From a phage, in assembly GCA_024683775.1 (NCBI GenBank), contig GCA_024683775.1_4106.1: a stretch of DNA of 64,000 bases; one strand, given 5' to 3'. Within the stretch, counting starts at the first letter, position 1; each line of letters begins with the position of its first letter. Both the position numbers and the translations under genes were made by a program. Below the pieces are notes generated by a model. The model was not told the DNA's origin and made no database searches. It worked only from the letters and a program-made list of their open reading frames with translations. Below, piece after piece: positions 1,563 to 35,321 of the stretch.

Positions 1563-1601
1563 TTAATAAATATCTTCATATTACTGATGGAGATATTTTC
1601 T

Positions 1602-1910
1602 ATGTCACAGATATGTTATGTTATAGTAAATGATGCGTGGCCTGATTATGTTAAGATAGGATTTACCAGTAAATCTGAAATGACAGAACGTTTAAGGACA
1701 TATCAAACTGCTACACCTTTTAGAGATTTTGTGGTATACCATGAAGTACACTTTGAAGATGCACGTTTAGCAGAGAAAGAAATTCACAAAAGACTAAAAC
1801 AAATGAACGCAGTAAGGCAACCTAACACCGAGTGGTTCAAGATGCCTAAGAAGATAGCAGCGAACATCGTTGATTCTGTTCTTGACGATATGGAAAACGA
1901 CTTGCTATAG
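1602..1910 (+). CDS. T5orf172 / GIY-YIG-like domain protein
   Basis: YVKIGFTSKSEMTERLRTY motif; GGAG 9 nt upstream of ATG 1602. Confidence 0.5.
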   Translation: MSQICYVIVNDAWPDYVKIGFTSKSEMTERLRTYQTATPFRDFVVYHEVHFEDARLAEKEIHKRLKQMNAVRQPNTEWFKMPKKIAANIVDSVLDDMENDLL

Positions 1911-3581: not shown

Positions 3582-4100
3582 ATGAAAACATATACACATT
3601 TCAAAAAATATATCCCAGTAGAAAAGAAACATGGAGATAATGTTCTTTATCTATTGTCAGATGAGGGTGTTGACTGGTATGATTGTCAAAACGAATTCAG
3701 ACAAGATACTTTAAAAGTTCAGTACTCTGACGATGGATATATTGCACAAGCATCATATGATGTAACATTGTTAGTACCGTATGGATACAGTGTTTCTGAG
3801 TTGGAGCATGATGGAGATGAAGATGAAGTAGTTGGTAAAATCTATGATGGAAGTAAAATTTCTGATTATGTTGAATCTACTGATGAAAAGATCAAACGTC
3901 TATCATCTGAGCACCAAGAATTAAGAACCGTAGCAATTAATGAGTTGAATAACATTAAGATGGCGATAGATCTTGAGGTAGCAACTGATTATGAAATAGA
4001 ACTGTTTCCTAAGTTGAAAGCATATGTTCTTGAGCTATCATCTCTAACAACATCTGAATTTAGTAAGAAGAAGTTTTCGTTCCCTGTTAAACCTGTTTAA
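3582..4100 (+). CDS. hypothetical protein, possible tail-fibre assembly/chaperone (by position only)
   Basis: 172-aa acidic ORF immediately downstream of the tail-fibre gene. Confidence 0.3.
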   Translation: MKTYTHFKKYIPVEKKHGDNVLYLLSDEGVDWYDCQNEFRQDTLKVQYSDDGYIAQASYDVTLLVPYGYSVSELEHDGDEDEVVGKIYDGSKISDYVESTDEKIKRLSSEHQELRTVAINELNNIKMAIDLEVATDYEIELFPKLKAYVLELSSLTTSEFSKKKFSFPVKPV

Positions 4101-4108
4101 AAGTTTTT

Positions 4109-4138
4109 TTGGAACAAAATCGTAAGTAGTGATACAAT
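4109..4138 (+). promoter_or_regulatory. promoter (TTGGAA, 18-bp spacer, TACAAT with TG extension)
   Basis: ttggaaCAAAatc box at -35 and tgaTACAAT; member of the GAGACAAAC-box promoter family. Confidence 0.45.
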
Positions 4139-4141
4139 GTA

Positions 4142-4177
4142 GTCATCTTACAGAGGTTGTGAGATGACATTTTTTTT
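4142..4177 (+). terminator. hairpin plus T-run (terminator or attenuator)
   Basis: GTCATCT / AGATGAC 7-bp stem at 4142-4148 and 4162-4168 followed by TTTTTTTT 4170-4177. Confidence 0.45.
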
Positions 4178-4201
4178 CAAAACACATGGAGAAGCAAACA
4201 A

Positions 4202-4507
4202 ATGGCAAAAGCTAAAAAAGAAGTTAAAGTTGAAATTCGTGACCTAAATGATGAACAACGTAAACGTCTAGGTGATGCACTAAACAACGCAGTAGTACAA
4301 CTTACTTTTATTGACGACACCAAAGCATCCTATGCAGATTTCATTAGTTCCATCTCTGATGAACTAGGTATTGATGCATCCGATATCAAACAAGCCGCTC
4401 AACGTATCTACAAAGGCGATTACTTTGATAAACAAAACAAACTCGATAATATCGAAACTATCCTAAGTGTTACTAACAATTTGCCACAAGCAGATGACGA
4501 TTACTAA
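4202..4507 (+). CDS. hypothetical protein
   Basis: 101-aa ORF with GGAG upstream. Confidence 0.45.
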   Translation: MAKAKKEVKVEIRDLNDEQRKRLGDALNNAVVQLTFIDDTKASYADFISSISDELGIDASDIKQAAQRIYKGDYFDKQNKLDNIETILSVTNNLPQADDDY

Positions 4508-4531
4508 TAAGTACTAAAAACTAAACTTTAT

Positions 4532-4560
4532 AGCCTCCAATGAATGGGGGCTTTATTTTT
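4532..4560 (+). terminator. rho-independent terminator
   Basis: AGCCTCCA/TGGGGGCT stem followed by TTTATTTTT. Confidence 0.5.
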
Positions 4561-4589
4561 AACTTAATAAACGTAAAGGAATACAAACG

Positions 4590-7500
4590 ATGTATATCGA
4601 TGCTTATATGGAACGTAAACGTACTGGTGATATTTTGCACGTAGCAGAACGTAAAAACGGTAAACGTATTCTACGTCAGTTGGACCCAGTATATGAATAT
4701 TATGTTGAATCTCCTACTGGTGAACACAAAACAATTTATGGAACTAACGCAAAGCATTTGGAGTTTGAAACTCAATCACAGATGAATAAAAGCGTTGAGC
4801 AACATAAAAATGAAGGTCTACGTATTTTTGAAAGTGATTGCAACATTACCTTCAAAACGTTGGCTAGAGAATACATGGGTAAAGGTTCGCCGGATTTGAA
4901 CGTAGCATTTTTCGATATCGAAACAGACTTCCATAAGAAGTTTGGTTATGCTCCACCATCAGATCCATTCAACCGTGTAACTGCAATTTCTCTATATCAA
5001 TCATGGACTGGTAAGGATTATGTACTGACTTTGCCACCAACTGATATGGAAATGTACGAAGCACAAGATATTGTTCGTCAGTTAAACGAAGAAACTAACG
5101 ACCCTAACAGTACTGTCATCCTTTATACGGATGAGAAAGAAATGTTTATGGAGTTCTTTAGTCTAATCGATGACTCTGATGTAATTTCAGGTTGGAACAG
5201 TGAATTCTTTGATATTCCATATATGGTCAACCGTACCAAGAAAATCTTCAACGAAGCAACTACTGCTCGTTGGTGTTTGTGGAATAAAAAACCAAATGCT
5301 CGTGAAGCTGATAACTTTGGTAAAACTGTAGTAACATATGATCTTATTGGTCGTGTACACTTAGACTATCTTGCTCTTTATAAGAAACATGCTGGTCAAG
5401 TTGAACAGTCGTACAAACTAGATTATATTGCTGAAAAGGTAACTAAAGAAAACAAAGTATCCTATGAAGGTTCATTGGATAAACTATACCGTGAAGATTA
5501 TATTACATTCTTGCGTTATTCTAAGCAGGATAGTATTCTTCTAAAGAAAATTGATGCTAAATGTGACTTTATCAACCTGCACAACCGTCTTGCTCATAAA
5601 GAATGTGTACTAATTAGTACTACAATGGGTTCGGTTGCACTAATCGACACTGCTATCATCAACCTTGCTCACAGTCGCGGTGAAGTTGTTTTTAACAAAG
5701 CACCGAAAGATGATATTGAGATAGATCCAGAGATGGAGTACTATGGTGAAGAAGGTGATGAAGAAGATGAGAAAATCAGTGCAAAAGCTGCTGGTGCATG
5801 GGTTCAAGATCCAGTTCTTGGCCTTGTTAGCGATTTGGGATGTACAGACTTTAACTCATTGTATCCAACTGTACTACGTACACTTGGCATGAGTACTGAA
5901 TGTATTCTTGGACAACTTCGTCAAGACTACACTGATGCATATCTTGCTGCTAAAGTACAAGAGCAAAAAGCTAAATCCAAATCTAAAGCGTTTGAACCTG
6001 ATTGGACCGCTGCATGGCATGGTTTATTTGCTGCTGTAGAATTTACAATGGTTCATGAAAAATCTGACAAAACTTTGATTGTTGATTTAGAAGATGGTAG
6101 TTCGTTCAATGCAACTGGTAAAGAATTGTATGATATTATCTTTGCTGAAGACAGTACTATTGTACTAAGTGCTAACGGAACACTTTTTGATAAGTCTAAG
6201 TATGGTGTAATTCCAGATATTCTTACTCAATGGTATTCTGAGCGTAAAGCACAACAAAAAATGGTAATCGACTACAAACACATGTACAGTGATGGGTGGG
6301 AATTCAATGGTTCTGAGAAGGTTGAACCTTTGCTATCTAACTACACAAGTGGTACAATGTTCCGTACAAACTTACATGACAATGATCCTGTTTATCTATT
6401 ACGTATTGCTATTGGTAAAGGTCAATGGGAAGAAGTTGCAAAACTCATTGTGGAAAATGGTTTAGTACTGAAAGATGGTCGTATTTTCTGTGCAACGGAA
6501 GATAAGAATTACTTCAAACAGCAAAGTGCATTCTGGAAACAGAACCAGCAAATTCGTAAGATTCTTCTAAACAGTCTATATGGTGCACTATTGAACAAAG
6601 GTTCACGTTTCTTTGATAAGCGTTTAGGTCAGTCCGTTACCTTAACTGGTCGTTCTATGACTAAACATATGGCAAGCCGTATCAATGAAATCACTACTGG
6701 TGTTTATAATCACCAAGGTGGCTCTGTAATTTACGGTGATACTGACTCCGTTTACTTCAGTGTAACTCATTACCTGAAAGAACAAGGTATTCCATATAAT
6801 CTTTCTAAAGAAGAAATTGTTGACATGTATATCAAAATCGGTGATGAAGTTGGTGAATCATTCCCTTCATTCATGAACGAAATGTTCAATACTGGTATTG
6901 AGAAAGGTAAGATTGTTGGTGCAGACCTAGAGATGGTCGGTTCCCGTGGTCTATTCCTGAAGAAAAAGCGTTATGCAATTCTCAAGTACTGGGAAGATGG
7001 TTTCCGTAAAGATGTTGATGGAAAGCCTGGTGAAATTAAAGCGATGGGTCTTGAAATTAAACGTTCAGATACGCCAAAATACATCCAGAACTTCCTAGAA
7101 GAGACTCTAATTGCATTGCTGGTGGGTGAGTCTGAAGCTCAACTTAAACAGCGTGTACGTGACTTTAAAGAGGTATTTAAAGACATGCCTGTACACGAAA
7201 AGGGTTCACCGAAAACTGTTAAGAACTATACCAACTTAGAAGCAGAATATGAAGTTTCTGGTAAATGTAAAGTTGGTCACGTATTAGCAGGTATTCAATG
7301 GAACCGTCTACGTGAAGTATATGATGACAAAACTGTACCTGAAGTAACTGACGGTACAAAAGTAATTGTATGTAACTTAAAAGATAACCCGATGGGTATT
7401 AAAGCAGTAGGTTACCCAATTGACTGTGTGGAATATCTACCTGAATGGTTCTTAGAACTACCATTTGATACAGAGAAAATGGAAGAAATAGTTCTAACTA

Positions 7501-8886: not shown

Positions 8887-8896
8887 TATAAATAAT

Positions 8897-8924
8897 GGGG
8901 AACATGGAGTTCCCCAAATTTTTG
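8897..8924 (+). terminator. rho-independent terminator
   Basis: GGGGAAC-ATGGA-GTTCCCC hairpin then T-run. Confidence 0.6.
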
Positions 8925-8952
8925 ATTTAAAAATAAGTAAAGGAAGACAAAA

Positions 8953-9159
8953 ATGCCATTATATACATATCGTTGTGAAAAAGAAGAATGTAAACACAGT
9001 TTAGAAAAGATTGTAAAAATTGCCAATCGTGAAGAACCTCATGATTGTCCTCAATGTAATGGTGAAAAGACTATGAAGTTGGAAGTTTTTACCCCTGGTG
9101 ATAAAGGTGCTAATCTTTATTTCCGTGGTAAATGGTTTGCAAACACTGGAGGTTACTGA
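8953..9159 (+). CDS. FmdB-like zinc-ribbon protein
   Basis: MPLYTYRCEKEECKH...CPQCNG pattern typical of FmdB-family Zn ribbons. Confidence 0.5.
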   Translation: MPLYTYRCEKEECKHSLEKIVKIANREEPHDCPQCNGEKTMKLEVFTPGDKGANLYFRGKWFANTGGY

Positions 9160-10225: not shown

Positions 10226-10915
10226 TTAAACCATCGCTGGGATGAATTTGAATAGTTTGATACCGAAGTCACCAGCAGCATCAGCAGCTTGGGAACGTAG
10301 AACAACTTCAGTAACACCATCTTTAGCGAGTAGTGGAACTGCGGTTAGGTCATCAATTAGTAGACGGCCTTCTTCGATCTCAGTACTTGGAACGCCTTGG
10401 AAAGATTGAATATCTTTATCAAATACGTTAGCACGTTCAACGAGGAAAGTAACTACTGATGCACTAGCGATATCAACAGCACCAACACTTAGGATACCGT
10501 CAGCAGCGTTGGTAAAACCAGTAACTGCAAATGGTTCAGCGTCGTTGCCAGCGATTTCGGAAGTAGCGATGATAACTGCACGTTGTTGAACAACATCAAC
10601 GATACGTTTAACGTTAGTTTGTGCAGCGTAAGCAGCGTTATAATCAGCTTCTAGAGTTGCTGCTTCAAATGGAGTACCATCGATACGGATGATACCTTTT
10701 TCGTTTAGATATGCAACGATTTCATCAGCTACGTCAGTGTTTAGGAAACGTTGTAGACCAGCGAAAGAACCAACTGCACCAGTAACACGCACGTTAACAT
10801 TACCAATTTTACTAATTGCGATAGATGCTAGGGCGTTTTTGCCACAGAAGTAACCTAGAATTTTATCAAAGGAATAACCATTGATACGTTCAAAAGAAGT
10901 ATTAGTATTAGACAT
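10226..10915 (-). CDS. abundant late protein, paralog B (probable virion structural protein)
   Basis: 229 aa, Ala/Gly/Val/Thr-rich, strongly biased codons; paralogous to 10931-11530 (QQRAV(I/L)..TS and ER..VFDK motifs); GGGGGA RBS. Confidence 0.5.
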   Translation of the reverse strand: MSNTNTSFERINGYSFDKILGYFCGKNALASIAISKIGNVNVRVTGAVGSFAGLQRFLNTDVADEIVAYLNEKGIIRIDGTPFEAATLEADYNAAYAAQTNVKRIVDVVQQRAVIIATSEIAGNDAEPFAVTGFTNAADGILSVGAVDIASASVVTFLVERANVFDKDIQSFQGVPSTEIEEGRLLIDDLTAVPLLAKDGVTEVVLRSQAADAAGDFGIKLFKFIPAMV

Positions 10916-10930
10916 ATTGTAGTCCCCCTA

Positions 10931-11530
10931 TTATAGTTGTACTGGTAGAGCAGCACGAACTTTAATTGCAACAGCGTCAGCGGCAGCAGCATCACCAACA
11001 CCATCAGTACCTAGAGCAACATAAGATTTGGTACGGAAGAATTTAGCTTGTGCAATAGCTTTAGCTAGTTCAACAGTTGGATCAACTGGAACAGAGTAAG
11101 CAGCACCTGGGCGAACTTCTTGTTTGTCAAATACGTCTTGACGTTCACAGATGAAGGTTAGAGCAACAGAACCAGCACCACCTGTAACATCAGCACCACT
11201 AGTACCAAACGCGATTACGTTACCACCAACGGTTTTAAAGTCAGCAGGGATAACAACAGCGGTGTCTAGAGCTAGTACGGAAGTAGTAACTAGTACTGCA
11301 CGTTGTTGTAGTAGTTGGGTAATCATGAATTGGTTGTATTGAGCATTGCTGATTGCAGTTTGTAGTGCTTCATCTTGAATTTCGGAACCGTCAGAAGTAA
11401 CAGCGGTAGTACCAACTTCAACATCTGCTGGTAGATCAACAACGATGGTTACGAAACCATTGTTACCACCCCAGTATTCACGAGCAGTAGCAGACATACC
11501 ATAGTTACGGTTAAAAGAATTAAGACTCAT
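10931..11530 (-). CDS. abundant late protein, paralog A (probable virion structural protein)
   Basis: 199 aa; paralog of 10226-10915; GGAG RBS; late-type elements upstream. Confidence 0.5.
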   Translation of the reverse strand: MSLNSFNRNYGMSATAREYWGGNNGFVTIVVDLPADVEVGTTAVTSDGSEIQDEALQTAISNAQYNQFMITQLLQQRAVLVTTSVLALDTAVVIPADFKTVGGNVIAFGTSGADVTGGAGSVALTFICERQDVFDKQEVRPGAAYSVPVDPTVELAKAIAQAKFFRTKSYVALGTDGVGDAAAADAVAIKVRAALPVQL

Positions 11531-11572
11531 AAAAATCTCCTTGTCAAATTTTGTGCAGGAACACCCTGCTTA

Positions 11573-11647
11573 ATATTATTTATCAAAAAATATAAACCAC
11601 ATTTAAATTTAAGGCAATATTCCCTGATCTCTATGATATTATTTATC
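11573..11647 (-). promoter_or_regulatory. two copies of late-promoter-like GATAAATAATAT element
   Basis: Minus-strand GATAAATAATAT at 11584-11573 and 11647-11636, 40-115 nt upstream of the start at 11530. Confidence 0.4.
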
Positions 11648-11651
11648 AAAT

Positions 11652-16908
<5,257 letters not shown>

Positions 16909-24668: not shown

Positions 24669-24994
24669 ATGGAAAAAGTATATATAATAAAATACCAGAA
24701 GGGTATGTACCTGTGCCTAAAGCAGATAAATCTAAATCTTTATCATTGCTTAGACAGGGTTCTATAACTGAAATTACACTTGATGGTAAAACCTTTCAGG
24801 TGCACGATCCTGTTCGTGTAGAAAAAATTATCAGTATGGTTGAAAGACATGAGGAAAGATTCTTTGGTCTAAGTCAAGAGTTGTCAAAGACCAAACAAAA
24901 GTGTACAATGTTAGAAAATCAGGTAACCAAATTATCTAACACTGTAAACAAATTGCAGGAGCAAATCAAAAATGCAGGATTCGACAAATTCTAA
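24665..24994 (+). CDS. hypothetical protein
   Basis: 109-aa ORF with C-terminal coiled-coil-like segment. Confidence 0.4.
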   Translation: MNGKSIYNKIPEGYVPVPKADKSKSLSLLRQGSITEITLDGKTFQVHDPVRVEKIISMVERHEERFFGLSQELSKTKQKCTMLENQVTKLSNTVNKLQEQIKNAGFDKF

Positions 24995-25610
24995 TTCGTA
25001 CCGTAAAGCACGAACAGATATCGACATTGACTTCAAAGATAGTAAGTCAGTGATTGCACAGCTTCCTTGTGTGCGAAGTACAGAAAAAATTACGGAGGAT
25101 GGTTTAATCCCCCATAACAGTGGTGTTCATTTTGATAATATACCAATTGACCCTATCACTGGTTTAGCCAGCATACAATATAAAGAAGCCGAACGCTTGG
25201 GATATCAAAAGGTAGATATCCTGTCACAATCGGCTTACCAGTATGTTCGTGATAGAGCACATTTAAAAGAACTAATGAATCAGGAACCTAATTGGGATCT
25301 TCTGTTAGAACCAGAAATAGTTGAACATCTTTCACAGATTAAAAAACACGTTACATTATTAAATGTGTGGAAACCTAAATCCATTGATGAACTTGCAATG
25401 TTTATTGCAATGATTCGTCCTGGAAAAAGGCAGTGCCAAAGTATGAATACATGGAGTGAAGTTGAATCCACTATATGGGATTACAGTACTATTGGCACAG
25501 ACCAAGCAGGAAATAAGTTACGATATTTCAAAAAGCCACATGCGTATGCATACAGCTTAATGATTGTAGTTCAACTTAACGCTTTAGTTGAACATCTTAC
25601 TTCTTCTTAA
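24972..25610 (+). CDS. DnaE-like (Pol III alpha) palm-domain fragment, C-terminal half
   Basis: TDIDIDF resembles the DnaE catalytic PDFDVDF; IDELAMFIAMIRPG vs DnaE FEDMIALVALFRPGP; HAYAYSLM vs SHSAAYALV; GGAG RBS. Confidence 0.45.
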   Translation: MQDSTNSNSYRKARTDIDIDFKDSKSVIAQLPCVRSTEKITEDGLIPHNSGVHFDNIPIDPITGLASIQYKEAERLGYQKVDILSQSAYQYVRDRAHLKELMNQEPNWDLLLEPEIVEHLSQIKKHVTLLNVWKPKSIDELAMFIAMIRPGKRQCQSMNTWSEVESTIWDYSTIGTDQAGNKLRYFKKPHAYAYSLMIVVQLNALVEHLTSS

Positions 25611-25950
25611 GAGCCACATTACGACGCTTGATGCGTTTTTGTGGCAAATCACTTAAAGAAACTACTGGACCACAAACGAAATTCACCGCAGGGGTATCGA
25701 ATCTCTGTGTGTAAGGTTCAAATTTCTCCATCTCTTCTTGGAAGAATAGACAGACTGGAATTGACCTGTTGCTTTGCCACCACCAATCATGTGCTATACC
25801 CAACAATTCATCTTGCATTGGTTCATCCATATCATCAAAGCAGTAAAGAGTAGTATACTGTTTACTTTTTATCTTGATAATACCAATGAAAGTTTTACCA
25901 TCACACTGAACTACCGTGATAAATGGTGGAATAGTATTATATTGATTCAT
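25597..25950 (-). CDS. hypothetical protein (lone minus-strand gene)
   Basis: 117-aa ORF with basic C-terminus; TATAAAT elements in the divergent upstream region. Confidence 0.4.
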   Translation of the reverse strand: MNQYNTIPPFITVVQCDGKTFIGIIKIKSKQYTTLYCFDDMDEPMQDELLGIAHDWWWQSNRSIPVCLFFQEEMEKFEPYTQRFDTPAVNFVCGPVVSLSDLPQKRIKRRNVALKKK

Positions 25951-25958
25951 ATGAGTTC

Positions 25959-25982
25959 CATAAATATTAGTATAAATTTATA
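25959..25982. promoter_or_regulatory. divergent late-promoter-like region with 12-bp palindrome TATAAATTTATA
   Basis: cATAAATAtta at 25959-25969 and the perfect palindrome at 25971-25982 lie between divergent starts at 25950 and 26008. Confidence 0.4.
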
Positions 25983-26007
25983 CCTATTATTTATGGAAGG
26001 AAAAACT

Positions 26008-26985
26008 ATGGCTCATCACGGCGTGTTTATGTACCCTTATAACCAAGAAGTATCATTGGGCAATTTTAATATGCCATATAGCAATGAGAAACTTACAATA
26101 TACAGAGGTGCAAATAACAATTTATCATTCACAGTGCATAACGCTGATGGAAAATATACATTACTAAAAGATAACGAATATCTAACATTCATGATTTTTG
26201 ATGCTAGAAACAATACTAAATTATTCGATGTAGTTTTGGATAAACAAAAACCATCATGGCTATCAGAAAGTGGACAAGCAAGACAAACATTAGGCAATAG
26301 TAAAAAAGTATATTATGGATGTATTGTTCCTGCTGGTGTAATTCAGGATACTAGTCCTGGTTCAAAATATAGATGGAGTATTACTAAAGTAACAATGGAT
26401 GGTTCCTTGATTGAACCTACACAGTACTTATACACTGGTCTTGATTATGAAGCCTCTGCTGAATTGATCATTTCCGACCAAGCTGCTCCTGTGTTTGTGC
26501 CAAGTATTGAAGTATCTGTTAATAAAAACCCAGCATGGACTACCATCAAACGCTTGTATCATGAACCAATCGCTCGTGGCGTTATTGGTGAATTTGATAT
26601 AATGGCAACATCTCCCCTTCCTGCACAAATGCAGTACGGATTAGTTGATGGTCTTAGTACTATTGCAATGTACTTTGATAAATTCATTGGTAGAATTCAA
26701 TTACAAGGATGTTTGTGTAATAACGTACCAACTGATAACGAAAACTATAAATGGTTTATTGTTAAATTGGATGGTAAAGAATATATCGAAAATGATATTG
26801 ATGAAAATGGATTCCCTAAAGCGTTAGATGGGATTCAAGCATTTAATTTTAAAGGTAATTACATGTGGTTGCGATTGGTTGTTTGTATTCATCCTAAGAT
26901 CGTTCCAGTTCCTTATGACTATGCGGCAGTAAGAAAAGTCTATGACCCACTACTGTCAGTTCCTAAAATTTTGATTCGCAGGTGA
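26008..26985 (+). CDS. hypothetical late protein (probable structural)
   Basis: 326-aa ORF from ATG 26008 with GGAAGG RBS; the track ORF from 25774 extends upstream without RBS. Confidence 0.45.
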   Translation: MAHHGVFMYPYNQEVSLGNFNMPYSNEKLTIYRGANNNLSFTVHNADGKYTLLKDNEYLTFMIFDARNNTKLFDVVLDKQKPSWLSESGQARQTLGNSKKVYYGCIVPAGVIQDTSPGSKYRWSITKVTMDGSLIEPTQYLYTGLDYEASAELIISDQAAPVFVPSIEVSVNKNPAWTTIKRLYHEPIARGVIGEFDIMATSPLPAQMQYGLVDGLSTIAMYFDKFIGRIQLQGCLCNNVPTDNENYKWFIVKLDGKEYIENDIDENGFPKALDGIQAFNFKGNYMWLRLVVCIHPKIVPVPYDYAAVRKVYDPLLSVPKILIRR

Positions 26986-27011
26986 GACAAAACAAGTGTT
27001 TGTGCTATAAT
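26982..27011 (+). promoter_or_regulatory. promoter with GAGACAAAC-type -35 box
   Basis: gtGAGACAAAac at 26982-26993, 18-nt spacer, tgcTATAAT with TATAAT at 27006-27011. Confidence 0.5.
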
Positions 27012-34167: not shown

Positions 34168-34711
34168 ACAAATGAAACAAGACCTATATACAATTCGTGC
34201 ACTAGAAAGTAAAGGCTACTCCTTAGATGAAGTAATCAAACTAAGTGATGAAGAAATTGACAAACTACAACTTTCAAATAAACTTCTAGTTAATATTAAA
34301 GATTATAAATCTCGCGGTGCAAAACCAGTAGAAGTAATCAAAGAGAAAATTGCTGAAGATATTAGTGTTGATGAAGTATCTCGTAATGTTGCACCAGAAG
34401 TAATCGAATCATATGTAGTAGATACTGAAGAACAAATTAAAGTATCTGAAGAAGTACAAGTAATCGCTGAAGAACTAGCACCTGTTGTTGAAGAAGAAGA
34501 CGTTGTTGTTATTGAACGTGTTGAAGCTTCAAAAGAAGATTTGGATATTATCAAAGAAGCACTAAAAACCAAAGAACTAAAAAGTGTTGCAAACTATGTA
34601 AAACACTTGAAATCCCTAGTTCCTGAATCAATTCTTTCTTCCGTTGATAGCTCTGTTGTATCTCAACTAATCAATGAGCGTATTGCTGAAGTTAAAGAAA
34701 ACGCTAAATAA
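34154..34711 (+). CDS. hypothetical acidic protein
   Basis: 185-aa ORF from ATG 34154. Confidence 0.4.
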   Translation: MEQHKQMKQDLYTIRALESKGYSLDEVIKLSDEEIDKLQLSNKLLVNIKDYKSRGAKPVEVIKEKIAEDISVDEVSRNVAPEVIESYVVDTEEQIKVSEEVQVIAEELAPVVEEEDVVVIERVEASKEDLDIIKEALKTKELKSVANYVKHLKSLVPESILSSVDSSVVSQLINERIAEVKENAK

Positions 34712-34739
34712 TCCTATAATACTATAGGAGATAGTTTTT

Positions 34740-35321
34740 ATGGCACAACAACAAATTGCGTTACAGCAAGTAAGAACTGGTAAGCAACGTGACTTACCAG
34801 ACGCGTTGGAAAAAGGCCAGATAGGATTCAGTACTGATGTGGGTCGTGTATTCATCGGCCTACCTTCCTCATCAGACCCAGCAAGCTTAGTTGCTGGGCG
34901 TACATGGGAAACTGATCCAAACTCTGGTAAAGAGAACGTGGAAATAATTACCGAATTCTCACCGTGGAGAACGGTATCCAAAATCATCAACCGTCCATTT
35001 GAAGTAGACATTCCACAAAACCAAGAGAGTGTTGAAGTTATTATTGAAAGTGAAAGTCGTGTATTCATCGACTACATCGCGTATAATAGCAATGAGACTA
35101 TTTTAGAATCAGGCACAGTGCAAATTGTTGCTGCTGGTTCTTCAACTATGATTGCACAGTCAAATAACACAAGCCGTACTGATGCAATTTTATCTATTCT
35201 GTTTAGTAATCCAGTTTATGATTCAAGTACTGGAAATATGCAATTTGACATAGTTAATGCGGATTATTTAAATTCAGGATACCACATAGAATTTGTATAT
35301 CGTGGGTGGGACAAACCTTAA
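34740..35321 (+). CDS. hypothetical protein
   Basis: 193-aa ORF with GGAG RBS. Confidence 0.45.
   Translation: MAQQQIALQQVRTGKQRDLPDALEKGQIGFSTDVGRVFIGLPSSSDPASLVAGRTWETDPNSGKENVEIITEFSPWRTVSKIINRPFEVDIPQNQESVEVIIESESRVFIDYIAYNSNETILESGTVQIVAAGSSTMIAQSNNTSRTDAILSILFSNPVYDSSTGNMQFDIVNADYLNSGYHIEFVYRGWDKP

What the first reader, a model, noticed from the sequence alone, without database searches (positions are those of the whole stretch)
25959..25982. Palindromic TATAAATTTATA between divergent genes
A perfect 12-bp palindrome presents a TATAAAT late-type -10 on both strands. It sits 25-30 nt from the start codons of the lone minus-strand gene at 25950 and the plus-strand gene at 26008. A second ATAAATA lies 10 nt upstream on the plus strand. 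This could be a compact bidirectional late promoter.
Basis: seen in the sequence. Interest (0 to 1): 0.4.

Follow-up and report, generated by a model that had tools for sequence, protein, structure and literature searches.

The report
Inward-facing late promoter pair in jumbo phage
The palindrome is real, but the conserved signals in this 57-bp gap between two divergent jumbo-phage genes are two inward-facing ATAAATA late-promoter boxes that flank it, so this is an ordinary T4-style late control region in an unusually compact layout.

Summary
The window comes from an Asteriusvirus-type jumbo coliphage (99.9% identical to WPEC5, 86% to 121Q). The palindrome exists and is 14 bp long (GTATAAATTTATAC, 25970-25983). 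Palindromes of this size occur at chance frequency in the window. Its half-site ATAAATT is not enriched upstream of genes.

The enriched motif is ATAAATA. Of 13 copies in the window, 11 lie 29-58 nt upstream of a same-strand start codon (P = 6e-15), mostly before virion genes. Two exact copies flank the palindrome and point towards each other: 25960-25966 on the + strand, 41 nt before the virion-protein gene, and 25994-25988 on the - strand, 37 nt before the 117-aa gene.

This inward-facing pair is kept in 17 of 19 relatives, out to a Vibrio phage. The centre between the boxes varies outside the 121Q clade. The + box is the ortholog of a promoter already predicted in phage CBB (Porf_289). A gp55-like late sigma factor is encoded in the same phage lineage.

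T4 geometry places both start sites inside the palindrome. The boxes plus the two ribosome-binding sites also form an inverted repeat. In read-through RNA it folds (-14.8 kcal/mol) and pairs part of the ribosome-binding site, as in T4 gene e. No transcript 5' ends have been mapped.

The parts
25970..25983 (.). It lies between the two late boxes. It is the predicted melting and initiation region for both promoters, and the inner stem of the read-through hairpin.
   Evidence: Invariant in 121Q and A4, but replaced by other A+T-rich sequence with indels in other genera; only T25971, A25972 and A25974 are invariant. Shuffling only the centre weakens the read-through hairpin from -14.8 to -11.0 kcal/mol (P about 0.017).
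25960..25966 (+). ATAAATA late-type box for the + gene (extended form CCATAAATATT, 25958-25968), 41 nt before the ATG at 26008.
   Evidence: Exact match to the motif enriched upstream of genes. Nearly invariant in 14 aligned relatives. Ortholog of Porf_289, ATAAATATTGTATA, in CBB Table S7.
25988..25994 (-). ATAAATA late-type box on the minus strand (TATTTAT on +), 37 nt before the small gene's ATG at 25950.
   Evidence: TATTTAT is invariant in all 14 aligned relatives and reads TATAAATA on the minus strand in most. TATTTAT occurs only 3 times on the + strand of the window, each time in a divergent spacer upstream of a minus-strand gene.
25956..25998 (.). Imperfect 43-bp inverted repeat. Outer arms are TTCCATAAATA (25956-25966) and TATTTATGGAA (25988-25998), with the inner palindrome between them. 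It is predicted to form a hairpin in any RNA that reads through the spacer.
   Evidence: -14.8 kcal/mol (z = -3.5) for + RNA and -14.4 (z = -4.5) for - RNA. An RNA starting at 25972 folds at only -0.9. Relatives are shown.
25995..26001 (+). Shine-Dalgarno sequence GGAAGGA of the + gene. GGAA (25995-25998) is paired in the read-through hairpin.
25955..25959 (-). Shine-Dalgarno sequence GGAAC of the small minus-strand gene (GGAAG in most relatives). It directly abuts the + box.
25972..25982 (.). Predicted start sites, inferred and not mapped: A25972 for the + transcript and 25981/25982 for the - transcript. The two 5' ends would overlap by about 10 nt.
   Evidence: In T4 the box spans -13 to -6 (PMC2988020). 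In a logo of 27 sites the most informative flanking position is an A 6 nt after the box.
25597..25950 (-). Gene for a conserved 117-aa protein of unknown function (phrog_11637). It converges on the PolIII-like gene 24972-25610 with a 14-nt overlap.
26008..26985 (+). Gene for a 325-aa virion structural protein (phrog_14467).
   Evidence: The orthologs are marked as virion proteins: CBB_289 and PA5oct gp262, 'ESI-MS/MS'.

Best explanation
The 57-bp spacer (25951-26007) is a compact divergent late control region of a RaK2/121Q-type jumbo phage.

The working promoter elements are most likely two T4-type late boxes (ATAAATA, the last 7 bases of T4's TATAAATA). They flank the palindrome and face each other. 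The + box (25960-25966) serves the virion-protein gene at 26008. The - box (25994-25988) serves the 117-aa gene at 25950. Host RNA polymerase carrying the phage's gp55-like late sigma factor would recognise them.

The spacer is too short for two back-to-back promoters with the usual 25-49 nt leaders, so the promoters cross. Each box abuts the other gene's ribosome-binding site. Both predicted start sites (about 25972 and about 25981) fall inside the palindrome, so polymerase bound in one direction would exclude the other.

The palindrome is the shared A+T-rich opening and initiation stretch. It is not a pair of -10 elements.

A consequence, and possibly a second function, is that boxes plus ribosome-binding sites form an inverted repeat. 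In longer + transcripts arriving from the upstream replication genes it would fold and pair part of the ribosome-binding site. Late transcripts starting inside it would lack the 5' arm and stay open, as in T4 genes e, soc, 49 and I-TevI.

Shown here: sequence, enrichment, conservation, the presence of the sigma gene and predicted folds. Inferred: start sites, timing, mutual exclusion and translational gating.
For: 1. Motif enrichment. 11 of 13 ATAAATA copies in the window have a same-strand start codon 10-60 nt downstream, against a background of 3.4% (binomial P = 6e-15). In the CBB structural module it is 11 of 11, at 25-49 nt.
2. Downstream genes. They are mostly virion genes: a tail fibre gene at 1952 and virion proteins at 15594, 26008, 30535, 54117 and 10931(-). 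The variants CTAAATA and GTAAATA precede virion proteins and the terminase.
3. Family conservation. An inward-facing box pair is found in 17 of 19 relatives, with gaps of 19-25 bp (7-8 bp in two metagenome contigs). The variable gap argues for two separate sites rather than one dimer site.
4. PA5oct. Both genes there also carry boxes, arranged back to back.
5. A second example. The divergent late pair gp250/gp251 in CBB has the same inward-facing layout.
6. Literature. The + box is orthologous to the published Porf_289.
7. Late sigma factor. CBB gp244 matches phrog_234, the late sigma factor family (E = 5e-19), and cyanophage gp55 (about 1e-9). WPEC5, which is 99.9% identical to the window at this locus, encodes a 75.6% identical ortholog.
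8. Promoter architecture. There is no -35 information and there is an A at the T4 +1 position, in line with the T4 description in PMC2988020.
9. Hairpin.. The T4 precedent is described in PMC3014915. No + strand terminator was predicted upstream.
Against: - No transcript 5' ends are available for any member of this family. Start sites and timing rest on analogy with T4.
- The outer boxes read CATAAATA, with C where T4 has T at -13.
- Within the 121Q/A4 clade the palindrome is as conserved as the boxes, so a promoter role for it there is not excluded. Its spacing to the start codons (29 and 24 nt) is near the observed range.
- The small protein has not been reported as a virion protein, so its late timing is only inferred from the motif.
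- The hairpin could be an automatic by-product of two boxes and two ribosome-binding sites placed in mirror image. The inner stem is not consistently kept in other genera. Only GGAA of the GGAAGGA ribosome-binding site is paired.
- The position-weight scoring is circular, because the training sites were chosen by the motif.
Confidence: 0.6

Rival explanations
1. The palindrome supplies two overlapping back-to-back late -10 elements (TATAAATT on each strand). Transcripts would start outside it, at about 25984 on + and about 25969 on -. This would be the late-sigma analogue of the symmetric bidirectional sigma-70 promoters.
For: - TATAAATT matches 7 of 8 bases of T4's TATAAATA, and single deviations occur among T4 late promoters (PMC2988020).
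- The spacings to the start codons, 29 and 24 nt, are close to the 25-49 nt range.
- The palindrome is invariant in 121Q and A4.
- Symmetric shared -10 elements do drive divergent transcription in E. coli (PMC12825309).
Against: - ATAAATT is not enriched upstream of genes: 1 of 27 independent copies in the window, and 2 of 20 in CBB, both next to a true box.
- The palindrome is absent in RaK2, GAP32, CBB, EJP2, 7t3, XaC1 and the Vibrio phage, although the gene pair and the flanking boxes persist.
- The predicted +1 bases would be C and T rather than the favoured A.
Confidence: 0.12
2. Only the + promoter is real. [quoted passage not shown] It is not a promoter, and the small gene is transcribed from somewhere else.
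For: - The hairpin pairs the + gene's ribosome-binding site in most relatives, with z-scores from -1.5 to -4.5.
- In the GAP32/CBB/SNUABM12 group, G-U pairs make the + RNA fold about 4 kcal/mol more stable than the - RNA fold.
- T4 precedent (PMC3014915).
- Other late boxes in the window sit in the 5' arm of hairpins that cover a ribosome-binding site, at 1566 and 34704.
Against: - The small gene is the only minus-strand gene locally and needs its own promoter. No sigma-70-like site lies in the spacer.
- In PA5oct and in contigs L019 and L020 the minus-strand box persists (as CTAAATA in the contigs) where it cannot form, or weakens, such a hairpin.
- Minus-strand boxes also precede the other minus-strand late gene, at 11577 and 11640.
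Confidence: 0.15
3. The palindrome is an operator for a dimeric DNA-binding regulator, phage or host, that controls one or both genes.
For: It is a perfect 14-bp dyad at the centre of a strongly conserved spacer in the 121Q/A4 clade. A transcriptional-regulator-like ORF lies at 4202-4507.
Against: - There are no further copies or near-copies in 64 kb: 5 matches against 9.6 expected.
- It is not conserved in other genera.
- The frequency of such palindromes is at chance level.
- No candidate binding protein has been linked to it.
Confidence: 0.05

Closest known systems
Bacteriophage T4 late promoters (TATAAATA; gp55 sigma, gp33 co-activator, gp45 clamp)
   Same: A single A+T-rich box with no -35 element. 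It has the same core sequence (ATAAATA is positions 2-8 of the T4 box). The stretch downstream is A+T-rich. It lies upstream of virion genes on either strand. A gp55-family sigma factor is encoded by the phage lineage.
   Different: The first box position is not T here (C, G or A), and position 2 also tolerates C or G. The sigma factor is longer, at 286 aa (T4 gp55 is about 185 aa, from my own knowledge). gp33 and gp45 partners were not examined; the CBB paper found none, while Iyer et al. report a gp33 ortholog in this group. No start sites have been mapped.
Predicted 'Promoter 3' (ATAAATA) of phages CBB and GAP32, specifically Porf_289 (Buttimer et al. 2017, PMC5259590)
   Same: The window's + box at 25960-25966 is the positional ortholog of Porf_289 (CBB 210,031-210,044, ATAAATATTGTATA), upstream of the orthologous virion-protein gene.
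   Different: That study searched only upstream of structural genes. It lists no promoter for CBB_288, the small gene. It does not mention the inward-facing partner box, the inverted repeat or the hairpin.
T4 gene e / soc / 49 / I-TevI translational gating (Uzan and Miller 2010, PMC3014915)
   Same: A late promoter lies in the DNA that encodes the 5' strand of a helix. In longer transcripts that helix pairs the ribosome-binding site. Transcripts from the late promoter lack that strand.
   Different: Here the 3' strand of the helix is itself a late box for the opposite gene, so one inverted repeat would serve two promoters. Only part of the ribosome-binding site is paired. Nothing has been tested experimentally.
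Bidirectional sigma-70 promoters arising from -10 symmetry (Warman et al. 2021; PMC12825309)
   Same: A short pseudo-symmetric A+T-rich sequence lies between divergent genes, and binding of polymerase in one orientation excludes the other.
   Different: In those promoters the -10 elements overlap and the start sites lie on either side of, or within, a shared -10 element. Here the conserved boxes are 21 bp apart and point towards each other, so the transcripts would overlap at their 5' ends. A different sigma family is involved.

Membership tests
T4-type (gp55-dependent) late promoter | TATAAATA-like box as the only conserved promoter element | tested here: met
   The outer boxes read CATAAATA on both strands (7 of 8 bases). 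A logo of 27 sites shows no information upstream at -35.
T4-type (gp55-dependent) late promoter | The motif marks late (virion) genes, in the right orientation, genome-wide | tested here: met
   11 of 13 copies in the window and 11 of 11 in the CBB module lie upstream of same-strand genes, which are mostly virion genes.
T4-type (gp55-dependent) late promoter | A+T-rich segment immediately downstream of the box | tested here: met
   The 21 bp between the boxes contain 4 G/C bases. The site listing shows the same trend.
T4-type (gp55-dependent) late promoter | The phage encodes a gp55-family late sigma factor | tested here: met
   CBB gp244 matches phrog_234 (E = 5e-19) and cyanophage gp55. A 75.6% identical ortholog is present in WPEC5, about 14 kb beyond the window's left end. 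The gene is not inside the window itself.
T4-type (gp55-dependent) late promoter | gp33 co-activator and gp45 sliding-clamp activation | not tested
   The literature conflicts. None was found in CBB, but a gp33 ortholog is reported for this phage group.
T4-type (gp55-dependent) late promoter | Transcripts start about 6 nt after the box, late in infection, and depend on the late sigma factor | not testable with these tools
   No 5'-end data exist for this family.
   TATAAAT at 25971-25977 on + and 25982-25976 on -.
   ATAAATT is at background level: 1 of 27 independent copies in the window, and 2 of 20 in CBB, both beside true boxes.
   It is present only in the window, 121Q and A4. The centre differs in 11 other aligned relatives.
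T4 gene e-type hairpin gating of translation | The ribosome-binding site is paired in longer transcripts but free in transcripts from the late promoter | tested here: inconclusive
   The fold is predicted at -14.8 kcal/mol (z = -3.5) and pairs GGAA of GGAAGGA; the late-start leader folds at -0.9. Similar folds are predicted in most relatives. However, the fold could be a by-product of the mirror layout, and the inner stem is not consistently kept.
T4 gene e-type hairpin gating of translation | [quoted passage not shown] | tested here: met
   The + box at 25960-25966 lies within the 5' arm at 25956-25966.
T4 gene e-type hairpin gating of translation | Read-through transcripts from upstream exist and are poorly translated | not testable with these tools
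   The only evidence is that no + strand terminator was predicted between the upstream replication genes and the spacer.

The most novel reading that the evidence does not exclude
Two gp55-type late promoters are deliberately placed face to face, so that both start sites fall in a shared palindrome and the two mRNAs begin with the same roughly 10 nt. The same inverted repeat would also act as an RNA lock that lets the virion gene be translated only from late-initiated transcripts. One 43-bp element would then set direction, mutual exclusion and translational timing for a gene pair that has stayed together from Vibrio phages to coliphages. This layout has not been described for T4-type late promoters. 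It would also mark the conserved 117-aa protein with a basic tail as a late factor of unknown role across this jumbo-phage group.
Probability: 0.3. Interest if true: 0.5.

Novelty: new member of a known kind. Interest (0 to 1): 0.3.

Why it matters
For annotators and engineers of RaK2/121Q-type jumbo phages, several of which are proposed for therapy, this gives a usable rule. Late genes are marked by ATAAATA (or C/G-TAAATA) 25-50 nt before the start codon. TATAAAT alone is not enough. The orthologous small gene, missed in some annotations, is real.

For phage transcription biology, it offers a compact natural case for testing how late-sigma promoters behave when they face each other. It also allows a test of whether the T4 trick of hiding a ribosome-binding site in read-through RNA is used far outside the T4 group. 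None of this overturns current understanding.

Tried and rejected
- Sigma-70 promoter in the spacer: the scan found none there and found no terminator.
- Known RNA family: nothing credible in Rfam for 25400-26600 (best E = 0.55).
- Palindrome as a repeated site: no near-copies in the window.
- Palindrome as a statistical oddity: rejected.
- TATTTAT as a general leader or ribosome-binding-site feature of + genes: rejected. It occurs only 3 times on the + strand, each time in a divergent spacer.
- Identity of the 117-aa protein:
  - No Pfam family and no PDB sequence match.
  - A confident AlphaFold model (pLDDT 86) gave no informative Foldseek match in PDB or BFVD.
- Transcript data: no transcriptome or start-site study exists for RaK2-like phages. 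The PA5oct paper reports only sigma-70-like motifs, and its supplements are not held. The RaK2 paper has no promoter analysis.
- CBB 'middle' motif TGAAACG-N-TATA: absent from the window.
- Position-weight scoring of the four candidate sites: circular, so not used as independent evidence.
- Test for a conserved inner stem across genera: mixed and not convincing.

Full report
**Source and genes.** The window matches Asteriusvirus-type jumbo coliphages. It is 99.9% identical to WPEC5 over 2.5 kb, 99.7-99.8% to EC.P1, Ecwhy_1, BF17 and fEgEco12, and 86% to 121Q and PBECO4.

- The + gene 26008-26985 encodes a 325-aa virion structural protein. It matches phrog_14467 over its full length from the ATG at 26008.
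- The - gene 25597-25950 encodes a 117-aa protein of unknown function (phrog_11637).
- Upstream on + is a PolIII-like polymerase piece (24972-25610). Downstream are a primase and a DnaB-like helicase.
- Further upstream lie SSB, UvsX, UvsY, an exonuclease subunit and a helicase.

The virion gene is therefore embedded in a replication cluster. The gene order polymerase piece, small gene on the opposite strand, virion gene, primase is conserved in every RaK2-like genus, in a Vibrio phage and in Pseudomonas phage PA5oct. The small gene next to its polymerase piece also persists in Atu_ph07 and SCTP-2. The small gene is therefore real, although fEgEco12 does not annotate it and instead extends the virion gene upstream.

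**Checking the observation.** TATAAATTTATA lies at 25971-25982, and the perfect palindrome is 14 bp (25970-25983). Three points need correction:

1. Palindromes of at least 12 bp are not rare here: 26 observed against 20.7 +/- 4.1 expected. The sequence has no near-copies.
2. Other minus-strand genes exist in the window, at 10226-11530.
3. There is a mirror ATAAATA on the minus strand at 25988-25994.

**Which motif marks genes.** I tested ATAAATA and all of its single-base variants for a same-strand start codon 10-60 nt downstream. The background rate is 3.4%.

| Motif | Copies with a downstream start |
|---|---|
| ATAAATA | 11 of 13 (P = 6e-15) |
| CTAAATA | 3 of 4 |
| GTAAATA | 3 of 5 |
| TTAAATA | 0 of 16 |
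| ATAAATT (palindrome half-site) | 5 of 31 |

For ATAAATT, two of the five are the palindrome itself and two adjoin true boxes. That leaves 1 of 27.

In a 30-kb structural module of phage CBB, ATAAATA scores 11 of 11, at 25-49 nt. These sites precede the major head protein, tail fibre and baseplate genes. ATAAATT scores 2 of 20 there, and both copies follow a true box in the same spacer.

The genes downstream of the boxes in the window are mainly virion proteins, a tail fibre and the terminase. This agrees with the late-promoter consensus proposed for CBB and GAP32 (PMC5259590).

A logo of 27 sites shows no -35 information. Its best flanking signal is an A 6 nt after the box. That is where T4 transcripts start, because the T4 box spans -13 to -6 (PMC2988020).

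**Comparison of the spacer across relatives.** I compared 19 spacers: 14 phage genomes, 4 metagenome contigs and PA5oct.

- The left CCATAAATATT is nearly invariant, and the right TATTTAT is invariant in all 14 aligned genomes. On the minus strand the right element reads TATAAATA in most.
- The centre changes in sequence and length.
- In 17 of 19 spacers the two boxes face inwards. Gaps are 19-25 bp, or 7-8 bp in two contigs. Box-to-ATG distances are 25-49 nt.
- PA5oct carries both boxes back to back. One distant contig (L017) has only the + box.
- The palindrome occurs only in the window, 121Q and A4.
- Within that clade the whole spacer is more conserved (98% and 95%) than the coding flanks (77-90%). 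Against RaK2 the differences cluster at 25970-25987.
- A second divergent late pair, CBB gp250/gp251, has the same inward-facing layout.
- In the window's other divergent spacer (11531-11669), only the virion gene has boxes. The exonuclease gene has none.
- CBB Table S7 lists Porf_289 at exactly the orthologous + box.

**Transcription machinery.** CBB gp244 is a gp55-family late sigma factor. It matches phrog_234 at 5e-19 and cyanophage gp55 at about 1e-9 by tblastn. WPEC5 has a 75.6% identical ortholog about 14 kb beyond the left end of the window.

**Mechanism (inferred).** T4 geometry puts +1 at A25972 for the + promoter and at 25981/25982 for the - promoter. Both lie inside the palindrome, so the two 5' ends overlap by about 10 nt and start with nearly the same sequence. 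A polymerase open complex in one direction would cover the other box, so the two promoters should exclude each other on a single template. A 57-bp spacer cannot hold two back-to-back promoters with 25-49 nt leaders, which explains why the promoters cross.

**The inverted repeat as RNA.** Each box abuts the other gene's ribosome-binding site. As a result, TTCCATAAATA (25956-25966) and TATTTATGGAA (25988-25998) are complementary.

- An RNA that crosses the whole spacer folds at -14.8 kcal/mol (z = -3.5). The fold pairs GGAA of the + gene's ribosome-binding site.
- An RNA that starts at 25972 is unstructured, at -0.9 kcal/mol.
- Most relatives show the same fold.
- No + strand terminator is predicted upstream.

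This matches the T4 arrangement for genes e, soc, 49 and I-TevI (PMC3014915). Two other late boxes in the window, at 1566 and 34704, sit in similar folds.

There are caveats. A mirror layout of boxes and ribosome-binding sites produces such a fold automatically. The palindrome adds about 3.8 kcal/mol in this clade (P about 0.017), but an inner stem is not consistently kept in other genera.

**Verdict.** The sequence is as described. The region very likely is a two-way late control region. The palindrome is probably not the promoter. The conserved, motif-matching elements are the two flanking inward-facing boxes, one of which has already been predicted in the literature for an ortholog. Confidence estimates:

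| Claim | Confidence |
|---|---|
| + box is a late promoter | about 0.85 |
| - box is a late promoter | about 0.65 |
| Palindrome half-sites are the main promoters | about 0.12 |
| Hairpin gates translation | about 0.4 |

All of these await 5'-end mapping.

Noticed in passing
window 25597-25950 (-): The 117-aa protein belongs to a family found across RaK2-like phages, PA5oct, Atu_ph07 and SCTP-2. In every relative whose locus I inspected it converges on the small PolIII-like polymerase gene. It has an invariant WWxQSNRxIP motif and a conserved tail, GPxISLSDLPTKRIKRRNxALKKKK. The AlphaFold model is confident (pLDDT 86), but there is no Pfam, PDB or informative Foldseek match.
   Followed up: partly
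window 25597-25610: The 3' ends of the PolIII-like gene and the small gene overlap by 14 nt, so there is no room for a terminator. Overlaps of 16-20 nt are kept in all the enterobacterial-type relatives and PA5oct; only the Vibrio phage lacks one. A minus-strand terminator-like hairpin lies about 480 nt further on, at 25118-25089, inside the polymerase gene. The small gene's transcript would therefore be antisense to the polymerase gene.
   Followed up: no
L001 (fEgEco12) 3642-4986, equivalent to window 25641-26985: The fEgEco12 record omits the small minus-strand gene. It annotates a + strand ORF instead and starts the virion gene about 220 nt too early. This is an annotation error relative to 121Q, RaK2, CBB and the protein-family alignment.
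   Followed up: partly
window 11531-11669: This second divergent spacer holds two tandem minus-strand boxes with an identical 14-nt context, TTGATAAATAATAT (11577 and 11640). They lie upstream of the virion-protein genes 10931-11530 and 10226-10915. The divergent + gene, an exonuclease at 11670, has no box.
   Followed up: partly
window 1566-1604: The late box at 1566 lies in the 5' arm of a predicted hairpin (-10.3 kcal/mol, z = -2.7). The 3' arm covers the GGAG ribosome-binding site of gene 1602-1910, a 102-aa protein related to the C-terminal part of endonuclease families. It sits next to an HNH endonuclease gene (79-1188). This resembles the T4 control of homing endonuclease genes.
   Followed up: partly
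window 34704-34742: [quoted passage not shown] The predicted late start falls inside the 5' arm.
   Followed up: no
window 26982-27011: A strong sigma-70-type promoter with an extended -10 element (TGCTATAAT, 27003-27011) lies just upstream of the primase gene (27041). The primase therefore appears to have its own early or middle promoter directly after the virion gene.
   Followed up: no
window 8887-8925: A perfect TATAAATA at 8887 is followed at once by a G+C-rich hairpin (GGGGAAC...GTTCCCC) and a T run. That is a terminator-like structure placed downstream of a late box, ahead of a 49-aa ORF (8953-9100).
   Followed up: no
window 13917-15561: The large terminase subunit appears split. ORF 13917-14261 matches positions 7-92 of the 890-position family profile, and ORF 14224-15561 matches positions 447-890. 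The middle part is unaccounted for. This could be a frameshift, an intervening element or a separate ORF.
   Followed up: no
L016 (CBB) 16187-16250: The divergent late pair gp250/gp251 in CBB has inward-facing ATAAATA boxes, each 45 nt from its start codon and 26 bp apart. Its centre contains TATAAATTTGTA, which differs by one base from the window's palindrome core.
   Followed up: partly
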